Source: Mobula hypostoma
Taxonomy: Eukaryota
Direction: 5' to 3'
DNA: 64,000 nt
Assembly (NCBI RefSeq): GCF_963921235.1
Contig: NC_086097.1
Coordinates: 14,074,001-14,138,000, forward strand
This document shows, piece by piece, positions 3,145 through 37,360 of the stretch. The number at the start of each line of letters is the position of its first letter. The first letter of the stretch is position 1. Under the pieces are notes generated by a model that was not told the DNA's origin, ran no database searches, and saw only the letters and a program-made list of their open reading frames with translations. The translations under genes were made by a program, and so were the position numbers.

Positions 3145-3780
3145 TAACAAAGTAAATTTTTTATCAGTATATGTCACTTTGAGATTCATTTTCTTCTTGC
3201 CATTTACAGGAATATAAAGTAACATAATAGAATTTATGATGAACTCTACATCAACAAAGTTTAGAATGGGGGTTAAGATCAGCCATGATAAAGTGATGGA
3301 GCAGACTCGATGGGCCAAAAGGATTAATTCTGCTCCTATCTCTTATGGTCTTAACAAAGACTGACAAAGACCCAATGTGCAAAAGAAGGCAAATTGTGCC
3401 AATAAAAAATAAATAAAATAACGCTGAGAATGTGAGCTGCACAATCCTTCAAAATGAGTCATTATGTTGTGGAATCAATTCAGAGGTGAGGTGAGTGAAG
3501 TTGTCCACGCCATTTCAGGAGCCTGATAATTGTAGGATAATATCAACTCCCGAGCCTGATGGTGTGGGACCTAAGGCTCCTGTACCATCTGTCCGATGGG
3601 CTGTATCCACCACTTGCTGTAGGTATTTCCATTCCTGGGCATTGGTGCTTCCAAACAAGCCATGATGCAGCCAGTTAGGATAATCTCTACGGTGCATCAA
3701 TAGAAGTTTGTCAAAGTTTTAGCCAAGGTCTTCATTCAGACTTGCCAAATCTACTTAAACATGCATGAAACTAGAGATGC
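3145..3780 (-). mobile_element. Rex1/Babar-type LINE 3' fragment with a nested CR1 3' end (~3262-3352)
   Basis: AAAGTAAATTT...GAGATTCATTTTCTT 3' end recurs at ~11620, 57333 and 58650; the minus-strand translation resembles the Rex1 C-terminus. Confidence 0.6.
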
Positions 3781-5158: not shown

Positions 5159-5866
5159 GTTTCTGTGGCTCTATCAGCGCACAGATCTTGTCTGAATGAA
5201 GGCAAACATCTCACACCCAGAGCTCAGTTGCACAAAACTACATTACTAGCACCCAGCCTGAGTTGGGCCTTCAGAGGGTGTGGTAGGGGCGGCGGGGGAG
5301 AACACAATACGAAAGTCTAACTGAGAATTTCCTAACTGATTCAGACTCATGGAAATGCAAAGAGAATGAAATTATGAAGAGAAGGATAACCACAAAAAGG
5401 ATGACAGCTCATAACAAGGGAGCGACTGGAAGGAGCTTACTCAAAGTATTACGGTTGAGAGCTGATCTGAGGATTAAGATGCAAGTTGTAAGGATACAGC
5501 GCTAAGCAGTGGTCAGCAAAAGTCTCTGTGTTCAGACGTTGTGCCTAACACTGTACCCATCTTCTACTGTTTGCTTCTGTCAGCTTTTGGAAGCTGAATA
5601 TGCATCTATGCAAAATGTACATAAATGCTGCAGTAATTTGTGTTCAGCCAAGTACGTGTTATGTGCATGGTTAGCACACAGAACAGAAGGTTAAATGTGT
5701 GTGTAATGTACCTGTGTATGTGTTCAGCACATACATCAGAGATGATATTGCATAACATAACAACATAACTTTACATAACATACTGTACATGTTTAACTCA
5801 GGCGACTGATGACAAGTGTGAATAATGCATGTATTGAGTAGATGAAATAGTAGATACATATGCATA

Positions 5867-5972
5867 AACATAAGACATTCTGCAGATACTGGAAATCAAA
5901 GATAACACTCTATATTCCTTTCCATAGGTGCTACCTGACCTGGTGAATTCCTTCAGCATTTTGTGTGGATAA
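5867..5972. mobile_element. Penelope-derived mini fold-back insert
   Basis: TCTGCAGATACTGGAAATC (minus tail) joined to a plus-strand ATAGGTGCTACCTGACC...CAGCATTTTGTGTG; flanked by ATATGCATA repeats at 5858-5866 and 5973-5981. Confidence 0.6.
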
Positions 5973-7019
5973 ATATGCATACTGTACATGTTTAGCAGAT
6001 GCAACAAAGGGTAAATGTGTTCAATAAGCAACATTAAAACAGAGAGTTTGTTTGTTCGTTATGTGCTGTGGTGTATGACGATGGCAATTATGGCCATGAT
6101 TGTTGTTGGAAAAAGAAGAAAGAAGATGTGGATAATGTATATGGATAAATTTTAACCCCATTTTTTCCTTGGGAAGGGCACAGCACAAGCTCATTGCAAT
6201 TTCAGAGAAGAGGCAAATATTATGAGAAAATAATAGTTGGTAGAAGTTCTCCAACAAACACCATCAAGATAAAAGAAGTGTTACTAATGGAAAAAATGGA
6301 AGAATTGGCACACAGGGTTTTTGAGCACAGGATTTTTTGCAGGAATTGGAATACTTGTTATCACAGAAATTGTGACTTATTCAAAAGGGAGACAGAAATG
6401 CAGTCGAAGGAGACAGAGGAACAAAGGTGGACCATGCATCTCCTCAAACCTATTCAAACCCTCAATAAGATGATAGGCAAGCTGCAACTTAATTGCACTG
6501 ACCTTTAAAAGATCAGTCAAAGCATATTCAACCAATCTCAGCTTTGAGATTATCAATTGACTCAAGAAACACTGAAGAGGAGAGAACAGCAGATTTCACC
6601 AGGTGGAGATGTGCTTCCTGACATCATTACATACCAATCTGCCCTGATTTTAGAATTGTCCTTCCTTCTTCTGGATCATCTAACTTGGTTATAAAATAAA
6701 GGCAGGGCAAGTTCAAAAACCGCAGCAGGTCAGGTGGCATCAAGAGATAGGAAAGGAGAGAAAAGAGAAAGAAAGAAAAAAGGAGAGAGAGAAAGAGAGA
6801 GAGACAGATAAAGACAGAGAGGGGAAGTCAATGAATCTCAGTTCTGGATAAAGTTAAATTATGAAGTACTTTAAAGAAAGGGAGGGGATGGAAAGAATGA
6901 AAGGGAAGGTCTGTGATAGGCTGAGAACAGGAAAGACTAAATGACACAAGTAGTGGCGGTGATGATAGTTCAGAAATTCATGAGGACCATAGAGAAGTGA
7001 AGAGCAAAAGTCTTTCTTT

Positions 7020-12370: not shown

Positions 12371-13569
12371 GGCAGCACCCTTGTGCTCAATGGAGAGGAG
12401 AGGAGGGCTTACGGAGGGCTGTGACGGACTGGGCTGCGACGGACTGGGCTGCATCCATTACATGGCTGTCTGGTCCGCCTCCGCGACGTAAATTCTTGAA
12501 ACAGCAGTTGGGAACAATTTGAATAAGAATTACCCGATAGGATAAAAGTTGATTCTTTACTTCCAAAAGCCTTGCACACACAGTGAAGGAAATAGGAGAA
12601 ATCTATTGGGATAAAGATGAAGCACTAATCTAGAATCTGAAGAAGCAGCATCTGTAATGTCCATTAAATAATCCTCAAATCTACTATTTCAAGGCTTTAG
12701 GCATGTGACACAGATGACATTTTGACCTTTGACCCGAGCATCCGACAGCATCGATCCACAGAGCTCAGAAATGCCCATGAAAGGAAAGCAATCTCTAGGT
12801 TAGCTGTACACTGGTTCTTTTTATATTGGATCAGTGTGCTTGCAGTGAAGCTGATGTTCTTTCTATATGCTTCAACTTTTGCCATTCAAGTTGGTGAAAG
12901 GGATTAAAACTTGGGATTGTTTGAATTATCTGTCACAGTAGACTGACAGTAAATACTTCTGCTATGCGTGCAATAAATTTTCATCAGCCTAATTGAAATG
13001 GATTTCCTTTACCAAAGCTAACTCATTGATTCTTAGTTTTGATAGACTCAGAACTCACACTTAAAGTGTCCACAATCAATTCAAACACAATATCAAGGGA
13101 CTTAACTGATTGAGAAGTTATTTGATAAATATTCTATCTTATTTTTCTCCTTTTTCACAGAGGTTTATTCAGGAAATCCTCAGCAATCAATGCATCTACT
13201 AAAAGAAGAGCAGTATTCATGTTAAAATTACTGTTAGTTTTAATCAAAAAATTTTGGACTGAAAATTCAGAATTTCCATCTGAAATGTCAGAGATTTCTC
13301 ATATCTGATCTCGTCAGATTAAGATGTTATAATCTTTGTGTGTCTTGCTGTGCTGGCGTGGAATTGTCAGTAAATATATTTCACCCTGTGCATGTTTGCT
13401 TGCAGAAGCTACCTTTTAATCTTGCCTCGAGCTGTGCATCCCATCAAGTAGAATAAAGATTAAGAATAATGAACATGAGAAAATCTGCAGATGCTGGAGA
13501 TCCAAAGCAACACACACAAAATTCTGGAGGAACTCAGCAGATCAGGCAGCATCTATGGTGAGGAATGAG

Positions 13570-13607
13570 CAGTCGACGTTTCAGGCCGAAACCCTTCTTC
13601 AGCACTG
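13570..13607 (-). ncRNA. Minimal type I hammerhead ribozyme motif
   Basis: Reverse complement reads CAGUG-CUGAAGA-AGGGUUUCGGCCU-GAA-ACGU-C-GACUG; the stem I closing pair is mismatched. Confidence 0.7.
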
Positions 13608-13936
13608 GAAAGGAAGTTGTATGGATGCCAGAATAAAAAGGTGGCATGGGGGATAACTAGAAGGTGATAGGTGAAGCCAAGTGGGTAGGAGAGATAAAGA
13701 GGTGGAAAGGAAGGAATCTGATAGGAGAACAAAGTGGACCATAGGATTCTATCACCTCCCCCTGGCTTCCCCCCCATCTTTCTTTTCTTTCTCCTATGGT
13801 CCACTCTCCTCTCCTCTCAGATTCCTTCTTCTCCAGCCCTTTACCTTTCCTACCCACCTGGCTTCACCCGTCACCTTCTAGCTACCCTCCTTTCCCTCCC
13901 CCACCTTTTTATTCTGGCAACTTCCCCCTTCCTTTC

Positions 13937-13973
13937 CAGTTCTGAGGAAGGGTCTCGGCTGAAACGTCGACTG
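13937..13973 (+). ncRNA. Minimal type I hammerhead ribozyme motif
   Basis: CAGUU-CUGAGGA-AGGGUCUCGGCU-GAA-ACGU-C-GACUG; stem II is shortened. Confidence 0.7.
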
Positions 13974-14721
13974 TTTATTCATTTTCATAGATGCTGCCTG
14001 ACCTGCTGAGATCCTCCAGCGTTTTGAGTCTGTTGCTTAAAAAGAGTAAGCCAGGATTGGGTTCAGCAGAAATTTTTCCCTGAATCTGAAATATGTACCT
14101 GAGATTTTAAGGAAATAAAACATTTTGGATCCTGCCTGTTAGCACCTGTAATTATTTTATATTGATGTACAGTAATAGAGGCATCTGAGATTCTCTTAAA
14201 TAGGGAAATGAATATGAAGAAAGTGGAGGGATATGGACCACATGCAGACAGAAGGAATGAAGTGTCACTAGCCTAATTAGTTTGGTAGAACATCATAGGC
14301 TGAAGAGCTTGTTCCCGAGTTGTGTTGTTTTATGTTCTATATTCTATTTCATTATTACCAATACTTATAGTCCTAATATGGGAAGAAAATCTATCCCAAA
14401 GCATCAAAAGGACAGATTCTGTGCCCTGGCATTAATACCACAGTGAAGATCATACAATAATTACAAATGGAAATTCAGTTTCAAGTTCATTATCATCTGA
14501 CTGTATCTGTATAAAACCAAGCAAAAGTGTTCCTCCAGACTATGGTGTACCCACATGCCATAAAACCATAAAATATAGGAGTAGAATTAGGCTATCTGTC
14601 CCATCAAGTCTGCTCTACCATGGCTAATCCATTTTCCCTCCCGACCACAATCTCCTGCTTTCTCCCCATATCCCTTCATGACCTAACTAATCTCGAACCT
14701 ATCAACTTCTGCCTTAAATAT

Positions 14722-15299: not shown

Positions 15300-16043
15300 T
15301 AAATAAATCATATACCCTATGATTTGGCCTCCACACTTGTCTGTGGCAACGAATTCCACAGATCCACAGCTCTCTGGCTAAGGAAATTCCTCCACATCTC
15401 CATTCTAAAAGGATGCATCTCTATTCTGTGGCTGTGATCTCTGGTCTTAGACTATAATTCAAAATGCATGTGAATTGTTCAACATAAGTAAACAGTGAGC
15501 AGCCCGCTGTCCTAGTGACAAGACCTTGGCAGTGGCAAGGTATTCATCAGTCTCACAGCCTAAGGAAAGAAGCTGTTACCCAGCCCGGCAGTCCTATCCT
15601 GATGTTCCTGTACCTTCTTTCCGACAGTAGTGGGTCCAAGAGATGTCACAACCACAGCTACTGTGGGGTCTATGTGCCCTGCAGGCAGTCTGCAGAATGG
15701 GTTCAACAATCGCACTCACGATCCAGCCAATTAGTGTTTCATTGTGTGGTAGTTAATTCTCTTCCTCTCAGTGCAGTCTTGTCAAACAAGATCAAAGGTA
15801 AAGCAATCTCAACACTCCCTGCTTACCATTGTCCTGGTTCCAGGGAAGAAGGCTACCATTTAGACTGACAACGCTAAGGAGCAGTATTTATTTAGTAATA
15901 AGCTATGATGGTCGAGCCGTTTTATCAGCATTAGCTTCCATTTGACAGTTCTTGTTAGCAAGCCTTGTTGGCCGAGCTTTTTATTGGTTTTATTCCCTTA
16001 CTTTCTGTACAGTTCCCACTAAAGTCAGTGAACTGTTGATTCA

Positions 16044-16187
16044 AGCAACACACATAAAAGTTGCTGGTGAACGCAGCAGGCCAGGCAGCATCTCTAGGAA
16101 GAGGTACAGTCGACGTTTCAGGCCGAGACCCTTCGTCAGGACTAACTGAAGGAAGAGTGAGTAAGGGATTTGAAAGTTTTTGTTGTT
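16044..16187 (-). mobile_element. Short Penelope pLTR insert with a 15-bp TSD
   Basis: Identical TGAACTGTTGATTCA at 16029-16043 and 16188-16202. Confidence 0.85.
16108..16143 (-). ncRNA. Intact minimal hammerhead ribozyme motif
   Basis: Reverse complement reads AGUC-CUGACGA-AGG(GUCUCGG)CCU-GAA-ACGU-C-GACU: perfect stem I, full core, GUC triplet, palindromic ACGU stem III. Confidence 0.8.
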
Positions 16188-16669
16188 TGAACTGTTGATT
16201 CACTTCAGTGTCTGTCTCTGCACTCTGGCCATAGCTGCACACCCTGTTGAGAGATTGTGGGATGGGTGGTAGGGACCCTCAACAATTCTTCAGGCCCTTC
16301 ATATACAATGCTCCCAGTAAATGTCACAAATGGGGGGGGGAGAGACCCCAGTGATCCTCTCAGCGGACTATACTGTCTTCTGTAGAATCTTTGTAATCCA
16401 AAATCTTGCAGCTTCTGTACCACATACCGATGCAGACAGGACACGCTCAGTGGTGCTCCTGTAGAAAATGGTGTTTTCTACATCATGATCGAAATTATGC
16501 CATGTTGCTTCCCAGAATTTCAAACTGGGAGTTCCCAGTGTTCTACAGTTAATACCTTCATCAGTATGTTGAACACTAGAAACGAAGTTTAAACTGTGGC
16601 TCAGGAGTTGGATTCATGCTTTGATGCTCTTGGCACGTGGAATCAAACATCTAGCCTGACAATCTAGTG

Positions 16670-17905: not shown

Positions 17906-20900
17906 AGGGCCTATACTATGTAACGTTCTCTGTTCTTATGTAAATGCAGAGGTGCTGATGCAATAGAAAAGCAAGCACCAGACTGGAGAGAGTAACAAAA
18001 CAGCGCGTTGTTCTCTGTTTCTGACCTACATGTATCTGCATTTTGGGTAAATGCAATTAGAAGCAAATAGTCAATGAACGACACAACGTTGGACTGAACT
18101 GAACTAAATTGAACACTCCTAGACTGTTTTACGGCTTCTGCGATTTGATGTTTATTATTTTCTTTGAATGGGTTCCATGGTATTTCTTTGCTTTGTGGCT
18201 GTCTGCGGGAAGATGAATCTCAGGTTTGTATACTGTATACGTACTTCGATAATAAATGTACTTTGAATCTTGAATCTTTGAATCTCCTCAACTATATACC
18301 TTGCTGCAGATCTTAGTTTCTTGACACTGTGACATGAATGGAAATAAAACCACTTAAAAATCAAAAATTAACTTCCCAACTAGTATTGCCCATCTTATAA
18401 TATCACATAGTCAAAATGTACAGAAAATTATTCCTTCAGCTAAAACTTGCCCTCCATTCAGTTGACCACTCTACATTTACAAGCCCAGACACCTAGCTTC
18501 TTTGTCCAAGTCTAGTGCTGTCCCCCTGCTGGAAACTGCTCAGAGCAACCAGCAGTGGGAATGTTCCATCACCCCAGAAGCCAAACAGCATCACTCCATT
18601 GTCACATTCATTGTCTGACCTACTGGTATCCCCAGCACTTTCTGCTTTTCTTTCAGATTTCCAGCATCTATAGCATTTTGCTTTTCAACTACCTGAGGTG
18701 TGGCAAGCTAACAACGGAAAGTGAAGCTTTGCAACAGCTCAGACACAGTACCAAGCTGAGAGAAATTCCATGATAAATACCTAAAAGGTAAGAAAGATAA
18801 TGAAAATCCTTATTGCAGGCTAAACCCCAGTAAAAAGAAGTACTCTTTTGTATACTGACAGGCAGCTATTCAATATACACCATATTGTTTGCCATTGTAA
18901 GAAAGTAGGGTTTGCTTAATGCCGACACAGTGCAATCTGTTAAGAAACTTTATTACCTAAGCAGGGTAGATAATGACATCCTGGATGAAAAGCAATCACT
19001 CGACAACATTAAAAGCAAAAAGAATGCGCTATATACTAAGAATATTGTCAAAAACAGATTAGTTTAAAGATCCTTATTGTCATACGATTTTTTTCATTTC
19101 CAGACAGCGCTGATCTCAGGTTTAGAGGCTCTGTGCCTGGTCGCAGCGAACAAGTGCTCAAGGGACTCCTGAGATAAAGTGACTTAAATAACCTCTTTAG
19201 GATTCTATTTAATGAAATACAGGATGGGTCACCAATGGGTTATTGGTTATCAGATTAACTGTGACCTCTTGGACAACTGAGCAGTGGAATGTGGAGTGGC
19301 TGCGACCTTGTTCAAATTACAGATTCGCATCCCACTTTCTACAGGATGATTAAGACTCTACTGAAGTGCAATTAATGCAACATCGTCAGAAAGGTGATAA
19401 TTGGAATTGTATTTGTAGCAGAATGAGACTTCACTTTTGAAGCCTTTGGAAAACTTTTACTTTGGACATTTATCTTGAAAGCCACTTATTCAACTACATA
19501 TTATCTTGCAGGATGAGCAATGCTTATTTTGTTTTAAATTGGGAATCTGCTAGCCAATGTGTAGAAGCTGGCGATTAGGACAATCTCCAAACTATTAATT
19601 TAGCAGATGTTTCTTCACTTTTAGTTGCATCTCTTAAATTTTACAGCTTGTCTAAATAGTGAAATTAATAATTGTTAAATAATTTAAAGCCAGCTCTGCC
19701 GATAATGCTTTCTTTGGAATAAAGGAGTCTAAGAGGAGGCTTAACTGTGGTGTATAAAATTATGAGAGGCCTAGAAAGGATAACAAGAAAAGACCCATTT
19801 CACTTTGCTTTACTTATCAAATGCACTTAGAGGAGGCTCGGTGTTTGCATAAGATGTTAGCTCTCTGATTCCTATCACCTGATAGCATTAATTGGTTTAT
19901 TATACTACGGGTGCTATATAAGCGCATGTTGTTGTCGTCATTGTTTGCTTGTAGTTTTTTACTGGCTGGATTATATTTGTTTATTTCCCTATAAATGCCT
20001 GCAAAAAAATGAATCTCAATATAGTATATGGTGCAATTTATGTACATTAATAATAAATTTCCTTTCAACATTCAACTTTGAACTTTGTTATCATCTTGAA
20101 TTGAGTCTTCCAGCTGAAACTGCTTAGGAACAGGATTGCTGAAGCAAGCAAATTTTATAAATGGGTAATATAATATAACAAGGGTCATATCTACTGTGTC
20201 CTGAAAGATAACCCAATGAACTTTAAAGGTTGTTGAATATGTTTTACAGGATTATAATACAATTGCAAAGTACTTGTAGTGCCGTCAGCTAAGGGATGAA
20301 GATTAACCACATCACCACGTTCCGAACCAGCTATTACCCCTCAAACATCAGGCTCTTGAACCAGGGGGGATAACTTCACTCAGCTCAACCTTCAATTGTT
20401 TCCACAACCATGGACTCACTTTCAAGGACTCAACAACTCACATTCTCAATATTAAAAACAATAGAAAATCTACAGATGCTGGAAATCCAAGCAATACACA
20501 CAAAATGCTGGAGGAACTCAGCAGGTCAGCCAGCATCTATGGAAAAGAGTATAGTTGACGTTTTGGGCCAAGACACTTCATCAGGACTGGAAAAAAGAAG
20601 ATGGGGGAGGGGAGGAAGAAACACAAGGTGATAGGTGAGACCGGGGAGTGCGGAGGTGCAGGGTGAAGAGCTGGGAGATTTATTGGTGAAGGAGATACAG
20701 GTTTGGAGAAGGGAGAATCTGAAGTAGAGGACAGAAGGCAATGGAAGAAAGGGGGAGGAGCACCAGAGAGAGGTGATGGGCAGGTAAAGAGATAAGGTGA
20801 GAGAGGGAAAAGGGAATGGGTGACGGTGAAGTTGGGGAGGGGGGTTGTGTGGGAGGGGTAATTACCGGAAGTTTGAGAAATTGATGTTCATGTCATCAGG

Positions 20901-22182
20901 TTGGAGGCTACCCAGACAGAATATAAGGTGTTGCTCCTCCAACCTGAGTGTTGCCTCATCACAACAGTAGAGGAGGCCATGGACTGACATGTTGAAATGG
21001 GAATGAGAAGTGGAATTGAAATGGGTAGCTCACTTTTTCTGGCGGATGGAGCGTAGGTGCTCAGTGAAGCAATCTGCCAAACTACATCGGGTCTCATCGA
21101 TCTACAGGAGGCCACACCGAGAGCACTGGACATAGCACATGACCCCAACAGACTCACTTATGAAGTGTCGCCTCACCTGGAAGGACTGTTTGGGGCCCTG
21201 AACAGTAGTGAGGTGTAGCACTTGTTCCGCTTGCAAAGTTAAGTACCAGGAGGAAGATCAGTGGGGAGGGATGAATAGACAAGGGAATCACGTAGGGAGC
21301 GATCCCTGCGGGAAGCAGTAGGTGGATGGGAGGAAAAGATGTGCTTGGTGGTGGGATCCCGTTGGAGATGACAGAAGTTACAAAGAATTATGTGCTGGAT
21401 GTGGAGGCTGGTGGGGTTGTAGGTGAGGATAAGTGGAACCCTATCCCTCATGACATGGTGAGAGGCTGGGGGTGAGGGCAGACACGCGTGAAATGGAAGA
21501 GATGCAGTTGGGGGCAGTATTGATGATGGAGGAAGGAAAGCCCCTTTCTTTGAAGGACAAGGACATCTCCTTTGTTCTGGAATGAAAAGCCTCATCCTGA
21601 GAGTAGATGCAGCAGAGACGGAGAAATTGGGTGACGGGGATGGTGTTTTTCCATGTAATAGGGAAAGAAGATGTATAGTCCAGCAAGCTGTGAGAAGCAG
21701 TGGGTTTATAATAGATCAGCTGTCTCCGGAGATAGAAACAGAGAGATAAAGAAAAGGGAGGGAGGTATCAGAAATGGCCCAAGTAAATTTGAGGGCAGGG
21801 TGGAAGTTGGAGGCAAAGTTGATGAAGTCGACGAGCTCCCCATGGGTGCTAGAAGCAACACCAATTCATTTGACGATGTTGTGTAGGAAAAGTTGTGGAA
21901 TTACACCAGTGTAGGCTTGGAATATAGACTGTTCCACACAGCTGACTAAAAGGCAGGCATAGCTGGAACCCACGTGAGTACCCGTGGCTACACCTTTTGT
22001 TTCAAGGAAGTGTGAGAAGAAATTATTGGAGAAATTATTGAGAGTGAGGACAAGTTCTGCCACATGGAGGAGAATGGTCGTAGAGGGGAACTGGTGGGGT
22101 CTGGTATTCAGAAAGAAATGGAGAGTTCTGAGGCCTTCCTAGTGGGGCAGGGGGTGGACATGTACAGGGTTTGGACATCCAT

Positions 22183-25100
22183 CCTGAACTCGAGGGGGAG
22201 CAATATTCTTGCAGGTAGGTTTGCTAGCATGGTTCGGGAGGGTTTAAACTAATTTGCAAGCAGGATGGGACCCGGAGCAATAGAGCAGTGGAAGAAGTGC
22301 ATGGAGTAAAGCCAGATCTAACATATAAAGAGGCTTTGAGGAAAGAGAAGCAGAATACAGGGTGTAAAGGTAGGAAGGTAGAAGGGCTAAAGTGTGTATA
22401 CTTCAATGCAAGAAGCATCAGGAACAAAGGTGATGAACTGAAAGCTTGGATACATACATGGAATTATGATATAGTGGCCATTACAGAGACTTGGCTAGCA
22501 TGAGGGCAGGAATGGATTCTCAATATTCCTGGATTTCAGTGCTTTAAAAGGGATAGAGGGGGAGAAGGGGAGGAGGGGTAGCATTACTGGTCAGGGATAC
22601 TATTACAGCTACAGAAAGAGTGGGTAATGTAGCAGGATCCTCTTTTGAGTCAGTATGGGTGGAAGTCAGGAACAGGAAGGGAGCAGTTACTCCACTGGGG
22701 GTATTCTATAGGCCCCCTGGTAGCAGAAGAGATACAGAGGAGCAGATTGGGAGGCAGATTTTGGAAAGGTGCAAAAATAACAGAGTTGTTATCATGGGTG
22801 ACTTCAACTTCCCTAATATTGATAGGCACCTGATTAGTTCCAATGGTTTAGACGGGGCAGTATTTGTTAAGTGTGTCCAGGACAAATTCCTGTCGCAGTA
22901 TGTTGACAGGCCGACTAGGGGGAATGCCATACTAGATCTAGTATTAGGTAACGAACCGGGTCAGGTCACAGATCTCTCGGTGGGTGAACATCTGGGGGAC
23001 AGTGACCACCGCTCCCTGACCTTTAGCATTGTCACGGAAAAGGATAGAATCAGAGAGGACAGGAATATTTTTAAATGGGGAAGGGCAAATTATGAGGCTA
23101 TAAGGCTAGAACTTGTGGGTGTGAATTGGGATGATGTTTTTGCAAGGAAATGTACTATGGACATGTGGTCGATGTTTAGAGATCTCTTGCAGGATGTTAA
23201 GGATAAATTTGTCCTGGTGAGGAAGATAAAGAATGGCAGGGTGAAGGAACCATGGGTGACAAGTGAGGTGGAAAATCTAGTCAGGTGGAAGAAGGCAGCA
23301 TACATGAGGCTTAGGGAGCAAGGATCAGATGGATCTATTGAAGAATATAGGGTAGCAAGAAAGGAGCTTAAGAAGGGGCTGAGGAGAGCAAGAAGGAGGC
23401 ATGAGAAGGCCTTGGCGAGTAGGGTAAAGGAAAACCCCAAGGCATTCTTCAATTATGTGAAGAACAAAAGGATGACAGGAGTGAAGGTAGGACTGATTAG
23501 TGATAAAGGAGGGAAGATGTGCCTGGAGGCTGTGGAAGTGAGTGAGGTCCTCAATGAATACTTCTCTTCGGTATTCACCAATGAGAGGGAACTTGATGAC
23601 ATTGAGGACAATATGAGTGAGGTTGATGTTCTGGAGCATGTTGATATTAAGGGAGAGGAGGTGTTGGAATTGTTAAAATATATTAGGACGGAAAAGTCCC
23701 CGGGGCCTGATGGAATATTCCCTAGGCTGCTCCATGAGGTGAGGGAAGAGATTGCTGAGCCTTTGGCTAGGATCTTCATGTCCTCGTTGTCCACGGGAAT
23801 GGTACCGGAGGATTGGAGGGAGGCGAATGTTGTCCCCTTGTTCAAAAAAGGTAGTAGGGATAGTCTGGGTAATTATAGACCAGTGAGCCTTACGTCTGTG
23901 GTGGGAAAGCTGTTGGAAAAGATTCTTAGAGATAGGATCTATGGGCATTTAGAGAATCATGGTCTGATCAGGGACAGTCAGCATGGCTTTGTGAAGAGCA
24001 GATTGTGTCTAACAAGCCTGATAGAGTTCTTTGAGGAGGTGACATGCATATAGATGAGGGTAGTGCAGTGGATGTGATCTATATGGATTTTAGTAAGCCA
24101 TTTGACAAGGTTCCACACGGTAGGCTTATTCAGAAAGTCAGAAGGCATGGGATCCAGGGAAGTTTGGCCAGGTGGATTCAGAATTGGGTTGCCTGCAGAA
24201 CGCAGAGGGTCATGGTGGAGGGAGTACATTCAGATTGGAGGGTTGTGACTAGTGGTGTCCCACAAGGATTGGTTCTGGGACCTCTACTTTTCGTGATTTT
24301 TATCAACGACCAGCATGTGGATGTAGAAGGGTGGGTTGGCAAGTTTGCAGACGACACAAAGGTTGGTGGTGTTGTGAATTGTGTAGGGGATTGTCGAAGA
24401 TTGCAGAAAGACATTGGTAGGATGCAGAAGTGGGCTGAAAAGTGGCAAATGGAGCTTAACCCTGAGAAGTGTGAGGTGGTACACTTTGAAAGGACAAATT
24501 CCAAGGCAGAGTACAAACTAAACGGCAGGATACTCAGTAGTGTGGAGGAGCAGAGGGAGCTGGGGGTACATGTCCACAGATCCCTGTAAGTTGCCTCACA
24601 GGTAGATAGGGTAGTTAAGAAAACTTATAGGGTGTTAGCTTTAATAAGTCGAGGGATAAAGTTTAAGCGTCGTGAGGTAATGATGCAGCTCTATAAAACT
24701 CTGGTTAGGCCAGACTTGGAGTACTGTATCCAGTTCTGGTCACCTCATGATAGGAAGGATGTGGAAGCACTGGAAAGGGTTCAAAGGAGACTTACCAGGA
24801 TGCTGCCTGGTTTAGAGAGTATGCATTATGATCAGAGATTAAGGGAGCGAGGGCTTTACTCTTTGGAGAGAAGGAGGATGACAGGAGACATGATAGAGGT
24901 ATACAAGATATTAAGAGGAATAGATAGAATGGATAGCCAGCGCCTCTTCCCCAGGGCACCACTGCTCAATACAAGAGGACATGGCTTTAAGGTAAGGGGT
25001 AGGAAGTTCAAGGGTTAGAGGAAGGTTTTTTACTCAGAGAGTGGTTGATGCATGGAATGCACTGCCTGAGTCAGTGGTGGAGGCAGATACACTAGTGAAA

Positions 25101-25243: not shown

Positions 25244-25845
25244 AAATAAGGGAACTTGAAATCATGGAAAAGGTCAAGAGTGTGTGAAGCGTCATGGAAG
25301 GGAATGAACGAAATGGGGGTATAAAACTGAGCTGAGGTATGCAGATACGAATTCAGTGGAACAAAAACAAGCAGAGACAATGGATCTACCTGCTCAAGCA
25401 GGTTTATGGATCTTGTGGGTGAGGGAACTATGAGGTTGGTGGCAGTGAATGGGAGATCCCCAGAGCTAATAAGATCAGTGATGGTGTTGGAGACAATAGT
25501 TCGGTGCTCCTAACTGGGGTCTTGTTCAAGGGGTAAATAAAAGGAGGTGTCTGAGAGTTGGTGCTGGGCCTCACCATGGTAGAGTTCAGTCTGCCAGACT
25601 ACTCCAGCACCCCCCTTATCTGCAGATTTAATGGTGAAGTTAGAAGTAATTGAAGCTCAGCCGATCATCAAAGAAGACTTCCTGAGTGTGCTAATGTTAC
25701 ATCTAACCAAACTGTAGATAAGACGTTACATTTATTTTTGTGCTGACGCTGACACACTCATATTCAGATGGATGACAAAGGAGAGTGGAGAGCAGAGCGT
25801 GTGGAAGGAGTGAGGTTGGAACTGGAGAGAAGTGTGGTGAAGTCG

Positions 25846-26356
25846 TGAATCGCATTGAATTTAATTTGGCTTTTTTGATGCTGATCAACAGTAAAAGACT
25901 CTTTCATGTTAAAGTAGAAACAGATCTCTACAAAGCAATCTAAATTAATTACAAATATAAAACCCAAAACAATTGATTGAATAAGTATTCACCCCCTCCA
26001 AGTCAGTATTTAGTAGATGTACCTTTGGCAGCAATTACAGCCTTGAGCCTGTGTGGATAGGTCTCTATCAGCTTTGCACATCTGGATACTGCAATTTTTC
26101 CCCATTCTTCTTTACAAAACTGCTCAAGCTTAGTCAGATTGGATGGGATCATGAGTGAACAGCCCTTTTCAAGTCCAGACACAACTTCTCAATTGGATTG
26201 AGCTCTGGACTCTGACTTGGCCAGTCCAGGACATTAACTTTGTTGTTTTTAAGCCATTCCCGTGAAATTAAATCCACTGCGATTCAATATTGTAAAACAA
26301 TAAAACATGAACATTTCCGGGGGGGGGGAGGGAGTGAATACATTTTATAGGCACTG
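25846..26356. mobile_element. Tc1/mariner IR/DR-type remnant, internally deleted, left TIR truncated
   Basis: Right end GTGAATACATTTTATAGGCACTG followed by TA; inner DR AAGTATTCACCCCC at ~25983; GAATCGCATTGAATTTAAT at the left mirrors ATTAAATCCACTGCGATTC at the right. Confidence 0.7.
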
Positions 26357-27250: not shown

Positions 27251-27505
27251 AATGGTTCAATTTGGAATTAACTGCCCAAATATTATTTGTAGAAGGTCAC
27301 ATGCAAAAGTGTTAATTTTTATCTTTAATTTCTGAAAAAATCTGATAAATATATCTTGTTGAATATTACTTACCAGCATCAATTTCACTCAGTGAGATTC
27401 AATGAAGTTTCTATCAGAATTCCAACTATGCACATGCCCCAGACAACTCAGAAACAGATCACTTCAATTCTCTCCAGTTTCAGTTAATTCAGTGACTGAA
27501 TTTGT

Positions 27506-27728
27506 TTCTAGGACCAGATTCTCGGCTTCTAGGACCAGGTTCTCTGTTTCTAGGACCAGATTCTTTGCCTCTAGGACCAGATTCTCGGCTTCTAGGACCA
27601 GGTTCTCTGTTTCTAGGACCAGATTCTTTGCCTCTAGGACCAGATTCTCGGCTTCTAGGACCAGGTTCTCTGTTTCTAGGACCAGATTCTTTGCCTCTAG
27701 GACCAGATTCTCTGCTTCTAAGACCAGA
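27506..27728. repeat. 21-bp minisatellite with a 63-bp higher-order unit
   Basis: About 10.5 units of YTCTAGGACCAGRTTCTYKGY, arranged (A-B-C)x3 plus one and a partial unit. Confidence 0.95.
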
Positions 27729-27857
27729 GAGCACAATTTCAGAATAGAATGCATTGCCACAGTCGGCTGTGGAGGCCAGTCATTGAGTATATTGAAAGTG
27801 GGCATTAATAGGTTTTTGATTGGTAAGGACATAAAAAGTTATGGGAAAAGAGAGGAG

Positions 27858-27949
27858 CAACACACATCAAAGTGCTGCCTGGCCTGCTGCGTTCACCAGC
27901 AACTTTGATGTGTGTTGCTTGAATTTCCAGCATCTGCAGAATTCCTCGT
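27858..27949 (+). mobile_element. 92-bp Penelope 3'-end insert with fold-back and a 14-bp TSD, inside a CR1 3' end
   Basis: GGAAAAGAGAGGAG at 27844-27857 and 27950-27963; GCAACACACATCAAAGT is the inverse of ACTTTGATGTGTGTTGC. Confidence 0.85.
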
Positions 27950-28784
27950 GGAAAAGAGAGGAGAATGGGATTGAGAGGGATAATAAATCAGCCATGATTA
28001 AATGTCAGGACAGGTTTGATGGCCTGAAAGGCCTAATTCTATTCTTGCGTTTTATAGTCCCACGGTCTAAAGGGCTTAAGTTCTTTTCATATTCGTTCAA
28101 CAAAGTTGTTGCGCTGCCTATTGACAGATACAAAGTAGACCTCACTAATTGACCTGTAGGAGCTCCTGAGCTTAAAAAAAAGTCATTTTTAGCAGTGTGC
28201 AAACCAAAGGTCACAAAATGATTGGTCTCTCATGACAGTTCTCAGTCAGCTTTTGAGAGTAGAGAACTAGTTTAGTGCCTTCCAAATGGTTTCGTTTCTC
28301 CTCTGCCTCCACAGGAAGCTGCTCAGAATCTTAGAAGATGCAAAAGCTTAAAAAATGCCCCACTAGACTGAAGGATAGTTTCTATTCCACAGCTGTAAGA
28401 CTATTGAACAGACCTCTTGTATCAGGAAAAAGAAACCTTACACTCACAACCTACCTCATCCTGAACGTTTCACCTTATTGTCAGCCTGCACTCTACTTTC
28501 TCGGTACCTGCAGTGCTATACTCTGCATTCTGTTCTGCTTTTCTCTCATGTTGCCGCAGTGTACTTATGTTTTAAAGTGATTGGAATAGATGGCGCACAA
28601 AATGAGGTTATTCACATTATCTCAGTCTGATTGACAACAATAACTCAATTATCAGTCACCCTAACGTTGGTACTGAGTCAATCTTGCCGTAACTCTTCAT
28701 AGGTAGTTGCACGGCAGAGATCATTACCTGTGTTGTGTGAGGAAGCTCCAATGGCTTTGCAGGAGCAGCAAGTCACCAGATCAC

Positions 28785-32355: not shown

Positions 32356-33005
32356 TGTCACGGTCCCGACCATTAATTCCCCATTTTCTCCTAATTCCCT
32401 TTGATTGTGCCACAGTTCTGACCATTAATTCCCCATTTTCCCCTAATTTCCTTTGATGGCAGCACACTTGGTTTTCATCAAGACCTGCAGCATAAGAACC
32501 CCGGCTTTGCACCCACTAGTTGCCAGATTGTTGGTTTTGCCAGTGTGGTAATTAACGTTTCCTGGCCGCTTAGGATTGTGTGTTCTAAGTTTTGCTTCAG
32601 TACCGAGATTTACCTGTGAAACTCAATCTCTCCATGTCAAGATAAATATTCTAAATTTTACTTCAGTACCAAGGTATACCTGTGTAACTCCGCTCTCCGG
32701 GTCATTAAGGAACACAAGCCTCCAACCCATGCCAAGGGTGTGGTCCTGTTGCAGTCAAAAATCTATCAACCTCCATTTTAAATATACCCTATAGCATGGC
32801 CTCCACAGATGTCTGTGGCAATGAATTTGATAGAGTTTTGTCTGCCACTTTCCTTTCTAAGCTCCACGTCAAGATAAGTTCTACCTGCCTCCTGCTTTCC
32901 TGCACTCCCTCCTGTTTGCCGTTCAACGCTCACACCCACATCTGCATCCTAACTCAATCTCCGTTCCTGTGTCCTGTGTTTCAGTTCGCCTCGTTCGTTG
33001 CAACA
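32356..33005 (+). repeat. 5' LTR (650 bp, including a 142-bp foreign insert and an internal duplication)
   Basis: TGTCACGGTCCCGAC...GTTGCAACA; TATA-like CATAAGAA at 32491. Confidence 0.9.
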
Positions 33006-33006
33006 G

Positions 33007-33017
33007 AACGATCTGGC
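33007..33017 (+). other. Self-priming primer-binding site
   Basis: AACGATCTGGC is the reverse complement of LTR sequence GCCAGATCGTT (37530-37540; GCCAGATTGTT at 32522-32532). Confidence 0.8.
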
Positions 33018-33021
33018 CCCC

Positions 33022-34038
33022 ATGGACTCAGTGGACATGAATACCCTTCAACAAGTCCTCGCCAGCCAGGGTTCCCTACTGGGACAGCACAACCAACTCC
33101 TCTGGGAGTTCATGGAGAACCTCCGTTCCCTGTCCGCTCACGTCACGCAGATTGGTAACCAAGTGGACCGTGTATCCACTCATTTTACCCCATCCACTCC
33201 TGGAACTCTGTCTAACTGGCCCAGACAGCCTGTAGTGGCAACCCGCTATGCGTCAGCAACACCCCCGCCAAGAGAGCCACACGTACCTGAACCGGAGCAC
33301 TACGCTGGGAATTTGGGGAAATGCCGGGCCTTCCTTCTTCAGGTCTCCTTGGTGTTCGAACAGCAGTCATCCACGTACTCCACAGATAAGTCAAAGATTG
33401 CTTATATCATGGGGTTCTTGTGGTTGAATCATGGGTCTGTGCATTAGCATGGGCCATAGCTGTTTGGGATAACCAACCGGATATCTGCTGTTCTTTCGCC
33501 TCCTTTATCGTGGAAATGAGTACGATCTTTGACCACCCCGTCTGTGGTAAAGACACCGCCAAGCATCTACTCGCTCTCCGCTGGGGCTCACGCAGTGTTG
33601 CCGAATATTCCGTGGAGTTCCAGGCGTTAGCGGCTGACTCGGGGTGGAATGATGAGGCACTCGCACTCCAAGGAGTATTCCGGAATGGTCTCAGCAACGT
33701 GGTGAAATACGAGTTGGCGGCGAAAGACGACACCGACAGCCTGGATTCCCTGATCTCCCTAGCCACCAGGTTGGACAATCGCCTCCTGGAACGCGGTAGA
33801 GAGAGAACTGGTCGTCCACCACATTTGACCACTCCACGGCACTCATTAGCGCCTCCCACCAGAACAAGCCTCTCTCCTCCTCCTGCTCCTAGAGTAGCTC
33901 CCAGCCCGGCCGTTTCCACCGCCCCAGGAGAGGAATGACTCCGGAGACTGAGAGCGGCTGAGTGTCTATATTGCGGCCAGTCCGGCCGCTACCTTGCTAC
34001 CTGTCCCCTTCGGCCAAAAGGGGGGGGCTCACCAGTAG
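33022..34038 (+). pseudogene. gag: Gypsy gag (Sushi/PEG10-like capsid plus CCHC knuckle)
   Basis: [70 protein letters not shown] (H to R); frameshifts and a stop. Confidence 0.9.
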
Positions 34039-37000
34039 AAAGGGGGACCCTGGTGAGCCAGACAACATTCCCTTGCATCCCCCAAACCCAGAAGCAGCTT
34101 CAAGCCACTCTGTGTTACAACCAATAGTCCCTGCCTCTGTTAGCACTAGTGGACTCCAGTGCTGAGGGAAACTTTTTGGATGAAAAGTTAGCCTTCTGAG
34201 CCAGAATTCCTCGTGAGCCATTGAATACCCCCCGCAAGCCCGGGCACTGGGATGGTAGACTACTGGCCCAAGCCACACACTGCACAGAACCTCTGCCTCT
34301 CCTTCTCTCCAGAAACCATCTGGAACAGATCCGATTCAATTTAATTTCCTCTCCTCAAGCCCTTGTAGTTCTTGGTTACCCCAGTTAAACCGTCATAACC
34401 CCCACATTGACTGGTCCACCGGGAAGATAGTCAGCTGGAGTTCATTCTGCCATTCCACTTGTCTACAATCAGCCCTTCCCCCAGTGGAAGTCACCGCGAC
34501 CTCATCTGCCTGTGAAATCACCGACTTATTCAAGGTGCCGGCAGAGTATCACGATCTGGGAGAAATGTTCTAGCAAGCAACAGGCTCTTTCCCTGCCTCC
34601 CCATCACCCTTACAATTGCGCAATTGATCTTCTCCCCGGAGCCTCTCTACCCACCAGTCGGCTGTATAACTTGTCCCAGCCAGAAAGAGAAGCAATGGAG
34701 GTTTACCTAAATGACTCCCTCGCGGCTGGCATTATCCAACCCTCATCTTCTCTTGTAGGCGCAGGTTTCTCCTTTGTGGGGAAGAAAGATGGCTCACTGC
34801 ACCTCTGCATTGACTGCCGTGGCCTGAACAACATCACCATAAAGAATAAGCATACCCTGCCCCTTATCAACTCTGCTTTCGAGCTCCTTCATGGAGCCAC
34901 AATTTTGTCTAAGTTGGACCTGTGGAACGCCTATCACCCGGTCAGGATAAGGGAGGAGAATGAATGGAAAACGGCTTTTAGCGCCCCCCCCCTTTGGTCA
35001 TTTCAAATACCTGGTCATGCCATTCGGTCTCACCAAAGCCCCCACCATCTTCCAAGCCCTGGTAAACGACGTCCTTAGGGACCTTATTAACCGTTTCATT
35101 TTTGTTTATTTGGACGACATGCTAATCTTCTCCTGTAGTCTTCAGGAACACACCCACCATGTCCGTCAGGTTCGTCAGAGGCTTTTGGAGAACTTGCTAT
35201 TCGTTAAGGCAGAGAAGTGCAAGTTCCATGCCCGTTCTGTCATTTTCCTGGGATACATCATTGAGAGCGGGCAAGTGAGAGCAGATCCCGAAAAGATCCG
35301 GGCGGTGGCAGAGTGGCCAAAACCCTCGACGCTCAAACAACTCCAGCGATTTCTGGGGTTCGCAAACTTGTACTGTCCTTTCATCAGGGATTACAGCCGG
35401 GTGGCAGCACCCCTTACTCGACTCACCTTTCCTGCGACTCCCTTCCACTGGACCCCTGAGACAGACTCAGTCTTCTCGGAGCTGACGAGGCGTTTCACTT
35501 CCGCTCCCATCCTGGTCCAACCTGACCCCTCTTGCCAATTCATTGTGGAAGTCAACGCCTCCGACTTTGGGGTGGGAGCAGTTCTCTCCCAACGCTCCAT
35601 CCTAGACCAAAAGGTCCATCCTTTTGCCTTCTTCTCTCGCCGTCTATCCCTTGCCGAACAGAACTACGACGTTGGGAACCCGGAGTTGCTGGCTGTCAAA
35701 CTCACCTTGGAGGATTGGAGGCATTGGTTGGAGGGAGATGAACATCCATTCGTCGTCTGGAAGGACCATAAGAACCTGGCATACATCCAAACCGCTAAAC
35801 GCCTTAATTCCCACCAAGCCTGTTGGGCATTATTTTTTGGCCGTTTCAAATTCACCCTCACCTATCATCCTGGTTCCAAGAACAAGAGGCCAGATGCGCT
35901 CTCTCATTAATATGTCTCCAAGAAGGGCCTTCCCAACATCCTGTGTTGTGGCTGCCCTCACCTGGGAGATCGAATCCATAGTCAAAGAGGCCCAACAGAC
36001 TCAACCTGACCCAGGCAATGGACCCCCCCAGTCGCCTCTTCGTGCCTGACTCTGTTCGGTCTCAGGTTCTTCAGTGGGGGCATACTTCTCGTTTTGCCTG
36101 CCATCCCGGAATCAATTGAACTCTGTCCCTTCTGAAGAGACATTTCTGGTGGCCCACCATGGATGCTGACACTCATTCCTTCGTCTCTGCCTGTACTGTG
36201 TGTGCCCGCGGAAAAGCCTCCCATCGGCCACCTGCTGGGCGGCTTCGTCCCCTACCTGTCCCTGGCCGCCCTTGGTCCCACATTGCTCTGGATTTCGTCA
36301 CTGGACTACCCCCTTCACATGGGAACACAGCTATACTCACCGTGGTGGACCGTTTTTCCAAAGCCGTGCACTGCATAGCCCTTCCCAAACTCCCTACAGC
36401 CCATGAAATGCCGATCTCCTTGTTTATCACGTCTTCCCCCTCCATGGAATTCCCTCTGACATTATTTCTGACTGGGGCCCCCAATTCATCTCTCAAGTCT
36501 GGAGATCCTTCTGTCAAGCCCTTGGAGCCTCAGTAAGTCCATCTTCCAGTTTCCATCCACAGACTAATAGTCAAACGGAACGAGCAAACCAGGATTTGGA
36601 AGCAGCACTGTGGTGCATATCCGCCAACAACCCGTCATCCTGGAGCACCCATCTCATTTGGGTGGAGTACACCCACAATTCCCTGGTCCACACCGCCACC
36701 GGAATGTCTCCCTTCGAATGCTCCCTTGGTTATCAACCCCTCTGTTTCCTGACCATGAAGACAACATTGCTGTGCCTTCAGTTCAGGCCCATCTCCGCCA
36801 GTGCCGCAAGATCTGGAAGGATGCACATGTGGCCCTGCTCCACTCAGCTGAATGCAACTGGAGGATCACCAATCGCCATCGAATTCCTGCCCCAAGCTAT
36901 CAGCCTGGTTAGAAGGTTTGGCTCTCTTCAAAGGACGTCCCCCTCAAGAATGAACCCAAGAAACTTGCCCCTCGTTATCTCGGACCATTCGAAATTGAGA

Positions 37001-37360
37001 GCATCATCAACCCCTCGGTGGTCAAATTCAAACTGCCCAGATCCACGCACATTCATCCCACGTTCCACGTCTCGCAATTGAAACCTGTGACTGTCAGCCC
37101 TTTCTGCCCTCCTGCTGAACCTCCTCCACCCGCCCGGATCATTGACAACTACCCAGTTTACACCGTCCAGTGAATACTGGATGTGTGCCACCCAGGCAGG
37201 GGTCTCCAGTACCTGGTTGATTGGGAGGGATGCAGTCCTGAGGTGCGCACCTGGATTCCCTGCTCCTTCAACTTGGACCCCTCACGCATCCGAGATTTCC
37301 ATCAAGACAATCCAGACAAGCCTGGTGGTTTGCCTGGAGGCTCCCATTGGGGGGAGGGGG
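34039..37360 (+). pseudogene. pol: Gypsy pol (protease, RT, RNase H, integrase, chromodomain)
   Basis: [32 protein letters not shown] (35107-35118), [50 protein letters not shown] and LQYLVDWEG; many lesions. Confidence 0.93.
37349..37360 (+). other. Polypurine tract
   Basis: GGGGGGAGGGGG, separated by 3 nt (TAC) from the 3' LTR TG. Confidence 0.85.

What the first reader, a model, noticed from the sequence alone, without database searches (positions are those of the whole stretch)
16044..16187. Young 144-bp insert carrying an intact minimal hammerhead ribozyme
Seen: the minus strand reads AGUC-CUGACGA-AGG(GUCUCGG)CCU-GAA-ACGU-C-GACU, giving a paired stem I, the full catalytic core, a GUC cleavage triplet and a palindromic 4-nt stem III. 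The insert has a perfect 15-bp TSD. Known: Penelope-like elements carry minimal type I hammerheads thought to cleave as dimers. Inference: a recently mobile, non-coding, ribozyme-bearing Penelope derivative (retrozyme-like) exists in this genome. The insert at 27858 shares its diagnostic GCTGGTGAACGCAGCAGG variant.
Basis: partly seen in the sequence, partly recalled or inferred. Interest (0 to 1): 0.7.

Follow-up and report, generated by a model that had tools for sequence, protein, structure and literature searches.

The report
Truncated Penelope end with hammerhead motif
The 144-base insert is the cut-off end of a very abundant protein-coding Penelope-like jumping gene, carrying the small hammerhead ribozyme motif already known from such elements and likely inert at this lone site, so it is ordinary and not a separate non-coding element.

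Summary
In detail: a 144-bp insert (16044-16187) between perfect 15-bp duplications, with a complete minimal type I hammerhead motif on the minus strand. The reading as a non-coding, retrozyme-like element does not. About 133 bp are 97% identical to the terminal repeat of a 3.7-kb Penelope-like element (reverse transcriptase plus GIY-YIG, Neptune-type motifs) with a 1039-codon open frame. Two 45-base words of the insert occur 21,009 and 31,975 times. Of 90 copies sampled without regard to their 5' end, 86 run on upstream of the insert's boundary and 75 reach about the end of the coding frame; none is a short tandem array. The insert is shared with a second species label, so it is young but not just inserted. 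The 27858 insert is the same subfamily but has no hammerhead. No 5' ends pile up at the predicted cut (0 of 15 solo ends); they cluster modestly just in front of the motif. Cleavage is untested. The scan has reported this arrangement before in this genome and in at least 14 genomes.

The parts
16029..16043 (.). Left copy of the 15-bp target-site duplication; its last 5 bases also match the start of the element's tail (microhomology at the element's 3' junction)
16044..16176 (-). 3' terminal repeat (pLTR) of the Penelope-like element, positions 3511-3643 of the natural copy L049, ending at the tail-less 3' end class
   Evidence: 134/138 identical to the 3' repeat of L049 over 16039-16176; 3' end classes
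16108..16143 (-). Minimal type I hammerhead motif: stem I, CUGACGA, one extra A, 4-bp stem II with 4-nt loop, GAA, loopless palindromic ACGU, predicted cut between 16112 and 16111
16177..16187 (-). 8-11 extra bases at the 5' junction that are not element sequence (up to three A's may belong to the element)
   Evidence: compare L001 with other copies; alignment stops at 16176
16188..16202 (.). Right copy of the 15-bp target-site duplication
27858..27949 (+). Second, independent insertion of the same subfamily: 16-bp inverted arm plus element positions 3597-3673 including the tail; no hammerhead; 14-bp duplication at 27844-27857 and 27950-27963

Best explanation
The insert is a 5'-truncated copy of a very abundant protein-coding Penelope-like retrotransposon, keeping only the end repeat that holds its hammerhead motif, and it was likely made by target-primed reverse transcription that stopped after about 135 bases. 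Steps: (shown) the genome holds copies with repeat - RT/GIY-YIG frame - repeat; copies end at one of two 3' positions about 35 bases apart, have scattered 5' ends and sit in 13-15-bp duplications. (Inferred from PMC11167929) the element's protein cut both target strands about 15 bp apart and started reverse transcription inside the element RNA at the upstream of the two start sites, here with a 5-base match to the target; synthesis stopped about 33 bases past the hammerhead, 8-11 extra bases were added and the gap was repaired. (Inferred) the hammerhead is a passenger: it lacks a stem III loop, would need a second copy or protein help to cut, and this lone copy has no same-strand partner, so it is probably a dead end.
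For: 97% identity to both terminal repeats of L049, whose 1039-codon open frame hits RVT_1 (E 5.8e-5) and GIY-YIG (E 1.5e-3) (both below Pfam's curated cut-offs) and has 984 relatives at E <= 1e-20, the best named ones from a shark at 69-73%. 123 of 123 scored genome matches to an RT-to-EN segment are 88-100% identical, from 168,911 first-look candidates. In 27 of 28 long-frame loci examined plus L046, the insert's sequence lies about 260 bp after the frame's stop or next to element sequence (all 31 loci listed hold it). 86 of 90 copies continue upstream of position 3494 and 75 of 90 reach about the stop codon. 13-15-bp duplications in 61 of 75 scored ends (48 insertions, search limited to 11-20 bp). 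One-armed tail-less copies like this one are common: 8 of 18 other one-armed insertions. The 43-nt motif is predicted to fold as a rod that pairs its own core (probability 0.40 against 0.0006 for the open-core fold), and in the 144-nt insert stems I and II have predicted probability 0.0.
Against: The insert's 5' end (3509-3511) nearly coincides with the 5' start of the intact copy L049 (3506), and 4 of 90 copies end in 3494-3514 against 1.0 expected from the stretch upstream (Poisson P 0.018), which could mark a defined RNA end or a recombined solo repeat. 14 of the 30 loci also end here, but that list is ranked by match to the insert's own 5' end. Folding energies ignore tertiary contacts and proteins. 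No cleavage or transcription data for this locus exist.
Confidence: 0.86

Rival explanations
1. The insert is a solo terminal repeat with a defined 5' end: either a run-off cDNA of a transcript that starts near position 3506, primed at the first repeat, or the remnant of a full-length copy after recombination between its two repeats.
For: L049 starts at 3506; 4 of 90 unbiased copies end at 3500-3508 (P 0.018 against the upstream rate); the family does show clustered 5' ends elsewhere (3540-3556).
Against: The four ends are spread over 9 bases and the end rate there (0.002 per base per copy) is no higher than in the next stretch downstream (0.004-0.005). Other copies with a front repeat start elsewhere: 3310 (L111), about 3483 (L133) and upstream of 3250 (L280). 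The stronger cluster lies 33 bases downstream and does not include this insert. Recombination between about 135-170-bp repeats should be rare (general knowledge).
Confidence: 0.1
2. The insert is a monomer of an independent non-autonomous, ribozyme-processed element (non-LTR retrozyme) that replicates on its own account using the Penelope protein.
For: Intact motif and duplication; retrozymes are proposed to arise from Penelope end repeats and were found in the one cartilaginous fish sampled (bioRxiv 2026.07.22.740005). 2 of 70 junction-enriched loci are short head-to-tail partial repeats (L188, L235).
Against: No tandem at this locus; none among 90 copies; no same-strand pair closer than 1 kb among the 100 places listed in each (by eye); the insert does not begin or end at the cut site; its three differences from the family majority are all shared variants; hammerhead is minimal, not canonical.
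Confidence: 0.04

Closest known systems
Minimal hammerheads (min-HHR) in pLTRs of metazoan Penelope-like elements (Cervera and De la Pena 2014, PMC4209133; parts 1-2 of 4 read: abstract, results, discussion, part of methods)
   Same: Type I topology, short stem I, an unpaired base between core position 9 and stem II, G at 10.1, palindromic positions 15.2-16.2 with no stem III loop, and most motifs dispersed singly in truncated copies.
   Different: Stem II is only 4 bp (7-8 bp in the schistosome examples); the closing pair is G-U here and G-C in about half of the relatives; no cartilaginous fish is named in the text read (supplements not seen).
Endonuclease-positive Penelope-like elements, Neptune type (Craig et al. 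2021, bioRxiv 10.1101/2021.04.23.441226; 12 of 37 passages read)
   Same: RT then C-terminal GIY-YIG with two cysteines between the motifs, CX4CxxC linker, strong 5' truncation, inverted 5' arms, partial tandems, 30-40-bp tail on one end only.
   Different: No difference found; clade assigned by motifs, not by a tree.
Poseidon of Anolis (PAc) (Frangieh et al. 2024, PMC11167929; parts 1-2 of 4 read: main text)
   Same: Two internal 3' end positions that bound the tail; hammerhead just before them; AT-rich targets; no sign of ends at the hammerhead cut.
   Different: Here the first in-frame Met lies after the tail, whereas in PAc the frame starts inside the hammerhead; tail-less ends here show a small match to the target (mean 1.9 bases) while PAc initiation was described as non-homologous.
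Non-LTR retrozymes (Cervera and de la Pena 2020, PMC7229834, 12 of 32 passages read; Li et al. 2026, bioRxiv 10.64898/2026.07.22.740005, parts 1-3 of 5 read)
   Same: Non-coding, type I hammerhead, related to Penelope end repeats.
   Different: Retrozymes are tandem arrays, mostly with canonical hammerheads, expressed as circles; this is a single truncated copy with a minimal motif and no array.

Membership tests
EN+ Penelope-like element (Neptune type) | Single frame with RT and C-terminal GIY-YIG endonuclease | tested here: met
   L049 open frame of 1039 codons: RVT_1 at 534-696, GIY-YIG at 942-1016 (below curated cut-offs, supported by 984 homologues). Met by the parent family, not by the insert itself.
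EN+ Penelope-like element (Neptune type) | Two cysteines between GIY and YIG motifs, and CX2-5CxxC linker between RT and EN | tested here: met
   Read directly in the translation; definition from passages
EN+ Penelope-like element (Neptune type) | Direct terminal repeats (pLTR) around the frame, containing a hammerhead | tested here: met
   172-bp repeats 99.4% identical in L049, each with the motif
EN+ Penelope-like element (Neptune type) | 5' truncation, inverted arms, 30-40-bp tail on one end | tested here: met
   27 of 27 two-armed insertions have one tailed and one tail-less end
EN+ Penelope-like element (Neptune type) | RT phylogeny places it in Neptune | not tested
   No labelled reference set was at hand; no tree built
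Minimal type I hammerhead | CUGANGA, GAAA, UH with stems I and II and palindromic 15-16 positions | tested here: met
   (17 real hits, 0 in 5 shuffles)
Minimal type I hammerhead | Covariation of stems | tested here: inconclusive
   86.5% of cells pair but 284 of 500 shuffles do as well, and 1 pair has a two-sided change; only pair-keeping one-sided variants (C-G/U-G, G-C/G-U). The 52 copies are too close in consensus.
Minimal type I hammerhead | Self-cleavage, as dimer or with protein | not testable with these tools
   Indirect sign absent: 0 of 15 solo and 2 of 40 inverted 5' junctions at the cut
Non-LTR retrozyme | Head-to-tail tandem units each with a hammerhead | tested here: not met
   None at the locus or among 90 copies; not searched genome-wide
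Non-LTR retrozyme | Discrete unit with its own boundaries, distinct from coding elements | tested here: not met
   86 of 90 copies run past the boundary; no private changes in 127 bases
Non-LTR retrozyme | Abundant monomeric linear and circular RNA | not testable with these tools
   Only assembled contigs of runs guessed to be RNA were offered

The most novel reading that the evidence does not exclude
The junctions of this family record the Penelope insertion mechanism in vivo: each cut strand primes at a different one of two fixed RNA sites (27 of 27 two-armed copies), the tail-less site is helped by a short match to the target, and copying tends to run off just in front of the hammerhead rather than at its cut. 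In the boldest reading this insert is a solo-repeat cDNA that ran off a second, upstream RNA start shared with intact elements.
Probability: 0.15. Interest if true: 0.45.

Novelty: new member of a known kind. Interest (0 to 1): 0.12.

Why it matters
The single insert matters little: it is one of roughly 100,000 or more fragments of a known kind of element with a known kind of motif. The family is useful as material: it is young, has long open frames and a nearly invariant minimal hammerhead, so it is a convenient system to test whether Penelope hammerheads cut in vivo and how the two reverse-transcription start sites are used, both still open (PMC4209133, PMC11167929).

Tried and rejected
Rfam scan at E <= 1: no hammerhead family matched (8 weak unrelated hits); not taken as evidence against a minimal motif. 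DNA search with the 68 bases downstream of the cut returned nothing because common words are skipped. PDB sequence search with the L049 frame: 0 hits. Metagenome search: 255 pattern matches, none confirmed. The extension table is invalid for minus-strand loci (not re-oriented) and was not used. Idea that the insert's 5' boundary is fixed, prompted by L049 and by 14 of 30 loci: tested on 90 copies chosen without regard to the upstream sequence, only weak enrichment. Idea that 5' ends map to the hammerhead cut: rejected, 0 of 15 solo, 2 of 40 inverted, 0 of 15 same-strand junctions (70 of 2,511 matches examined); 1 of 36 and 0 of 27 in the other samples. Covariation not above shuffles. Empty site: none seen; the one contig of organism C starts 4 bases before the right duplication and cannot tell filled from empty. 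RNA: three runs only guessed to be RNA cover the whole element with a 3'-rising gradient like that of the genomic copies, and the one run on record as RNA laid 5 contigs; nothing concluded about expression, ends or circles. Literature searches for a description of this family in sharks or rays listed none by title or abstract; supplements of PMC4209133 were not opened and those of the 2026 preprint are closed, and either may list it; Repbase and Dfam are not searchable here.

Full report
Observation. The window shows a 144-bp insert at 16044-16187 between two identical 15-mers (16029-16043, 16188-16202). On the minus strand it holds all conserved bases of a type I hammerhead with a loopless palindromic stem III. 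A relaxed descriptor found 17 such motifs in 664 kb (the window plus 60 stretches of 10 kb taken at fixed positions) and none in five shuffles. Rfam models do not detect it. Covariation does not exceed the shuffles.

What it belongs to. A genome search gave 40 near-full matches at 95-100% identity as a lower bound; many continue upstream into a shared pyrimidine-rich stretch and then into frames for a reverse transcriptase and a GIY-YIG endonuclease. A protein segment from one of them had 168,911 first-look candidates, and the 123 scored were 88-100% identical, with open frames up to 1092 codons. All 31 long-frame or extended loci examined hold the insert's sequence. L049 is complete: a 172-bp repeat, a 1039-codon open frame (first Met at codon 28), a 3' untranslated stretch and a second repeat 99.4% identical to the first; the insert matches these at 134/138 and 133/138. 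The frame hits RVT_1 and GIY-YIG below their curated cut-offs and has 984 homologues, the closest named ones from a shark, so the host is probably a cartilaginous fish. The CX4CxxC linker and the two cysteines inside the GIY-YIG motif point to the Neptune type (definition from passages); no tree was built. Below, positions are those of L049 counted from its 5' end: stop codon about 3247, insert 3511-3643, hammerhead 3544-3579, predicted cut after 3575.

Abundance. Two exact 45-base words of the insert occur 21,009 and 31,975 times, with 0 for the reversed controls. Hits of 88% identity or more cover 23,176 of 664,000 sampled bases, 3.5%, and 26 arms reaching the 3' end in 600 kb (28 with the window's two) extrapolate to the order of 100,000-150,000 arms.

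Is it a discrete unit? Of the first 90 genomic places of the first word, 86 extend upstream of position 3494 and 75 reach about the stop codon or the edge of the stretch examined; 4 end in 3494-3514 against 1.0 expected from the rate further upstream (P 0.018). Some of the 90 are two arms of one insertion. The rate in that interval (0.002 per base per copy) is not above the rate just downstream (0.004-0.005), and other front repeats start at other places (L111, L133, L280), so the match with the start of L049 is most likely coincidence, though not excluded. No short head-to-tail array was found downstream of any of the 90; two run on into the start of the frame. Two of 70 junction-enriched loci are short partial tandems. 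I did not search the whole genome for arrays.

How it was made. Copies end at two 3' positions, about 3641 and about 3677, and 27 of 27 two-armed insertions with a duplication have one of each, the known one-sided tail. Work on the Anolis element shows reverse transcription starting inside the RNA at two sites that bound this tail, with both target strands cut, and hammerhead cleavage needing protein and being dispensable for insertion in vitro (PMC11167929). Duplications are 13-15 bp in 61 of 75 scored ends. The insert is a one-armed, tail-less copy, as are 8 of 18 other one-armed insertions. Its duplication matches the start of the tail over 5 bases; tail-less ends match the target by a mean of 1.9 bases (31 of 36 at least one) against 1.05 for tailed ends (21 of 39; Mann-Whitney P 0.003; ends not independent, no shuffled null). 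The mechanism is inferred; only the junctions are shown.

Does the ribozyme matter here? Published minimal motifs did not cut as monomers and cut weakly as dimers (PMC4209133). The 43-nt motif is predicted to fold as a rod in which the core pairs with the stem III and cut-site bases, and in the whole insert the hammerhead stems are not predicted. If cleaved RNA were the template, 5' ends should fall after 3575. In 70 of 2,511 copies selected for a junction between 3557 and 3605, 0 of 15 solo, 2 of 40 inverted and 0 of 15 same-strand junctions lie there. Ends do cluster just in front of the motif, 3540-3556: 8 of 36 arms and 2 of 27 arms in two unbiased samples, and 30 of 42 partner arms in the selected sample, where selection and microhomology may inflate the count. 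I looked for this cluster after reading earlier notes of the scan. The insert's own 5' end lies about 33 bases upstream of the cluster.

Age. Over 127 bases the insert differs from the family majority at 3 positions, all shared variants, so it is close to an active lineage. But contigs from a second species label bridge its right junction (16153-16318, 35 bases inside; left junction only 21 bases inside) with flanks about 1-2% different, so the insertion predates that split. No empty site was seen.

The 27858 insert is an independent 92-bp copy of the same subfamily with a 16-bp inverted arm, a tail and a 14-bp duplication, and no hammerhead. About ten older relatives at 72-82% identity lie in the window.

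Comparison and verdict. It works like, and belongs to, the truncated copies of endonuclease-bearing Penelope-like elements with minimal hammerheads. It fails the two retrozyme features that could be tested (tandem units, discrete boundaries; definitions). Searches listed no paper on this family in sharks or rays, but supplements and repeat databases were not seen. The scan's own notes list 24 similar findings in at least 14 genomes and several in this genome, one 23 kb away; they are unchecked and are not used as support. New member of a known kind, interest 0.12.

Noticed in passing
L066, L071, L087 and 24 further loci: All 27 two-armed insertions with a duplication have one tailed and one tail-less end, and tail-less ends match the target slightly more than tailed ends (mean 1.9 against 1.05 bases).
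   Followed up: partly
element positions 3540-3556 (window 16131-16147 equivalent): 5' ends of arms cluster at the front edge of the hammerhead, not at its predicted cut; about threefold above neighbouring stretches in unbiased samples.
   Followed up: partly
L049:2264-5940 minus; also G000:C1 about 7979276-7982830: A complete element with two repeats and an uninterrupted 1039-codon frame; a second same-strand pair of repeats 3510 bp apart suggests another full-length copy.
   Followed up: partly
window 16104-16146 minus: With C at core position 7 the young subfamily's motif can pair its core with the stem III and cut-site bases, giving an inactive rod; older relatives vary at this base.
   Followed up: partly
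window 13472-14041: Two older element ends in opposite orientation with a purine/pyrimidine hairpin between them (weak miRNA-model hits at 13684-13853), probably an old two-armed insertion.
   Followed up: no
window 20456-22188 minus and 25249-25848 minus, with 22557-24589 plus: An older Penelope copy (72% identical to L049) apparently interrupted by a CR1-like LINE with a 498-codon open stretch; the LINE label is from recalled motifs.
   Followed up: no
window 32953-37081 plus: Broken frames resembling gag, RT/RNase H and integrase of a Ty3/gypsy-type LTR retrotransposon (label from recalled motifs).
   Followed up: no
window 27503-27720: Tandem array of a 21-bp unit with a 63-bp higher-order period.
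   Followed up: no
window 5779-5992: Another pair of exact 15-bp or longer direct repeats 199 bp apart, possibly a duplication around a second short insert.
   Followed up: no
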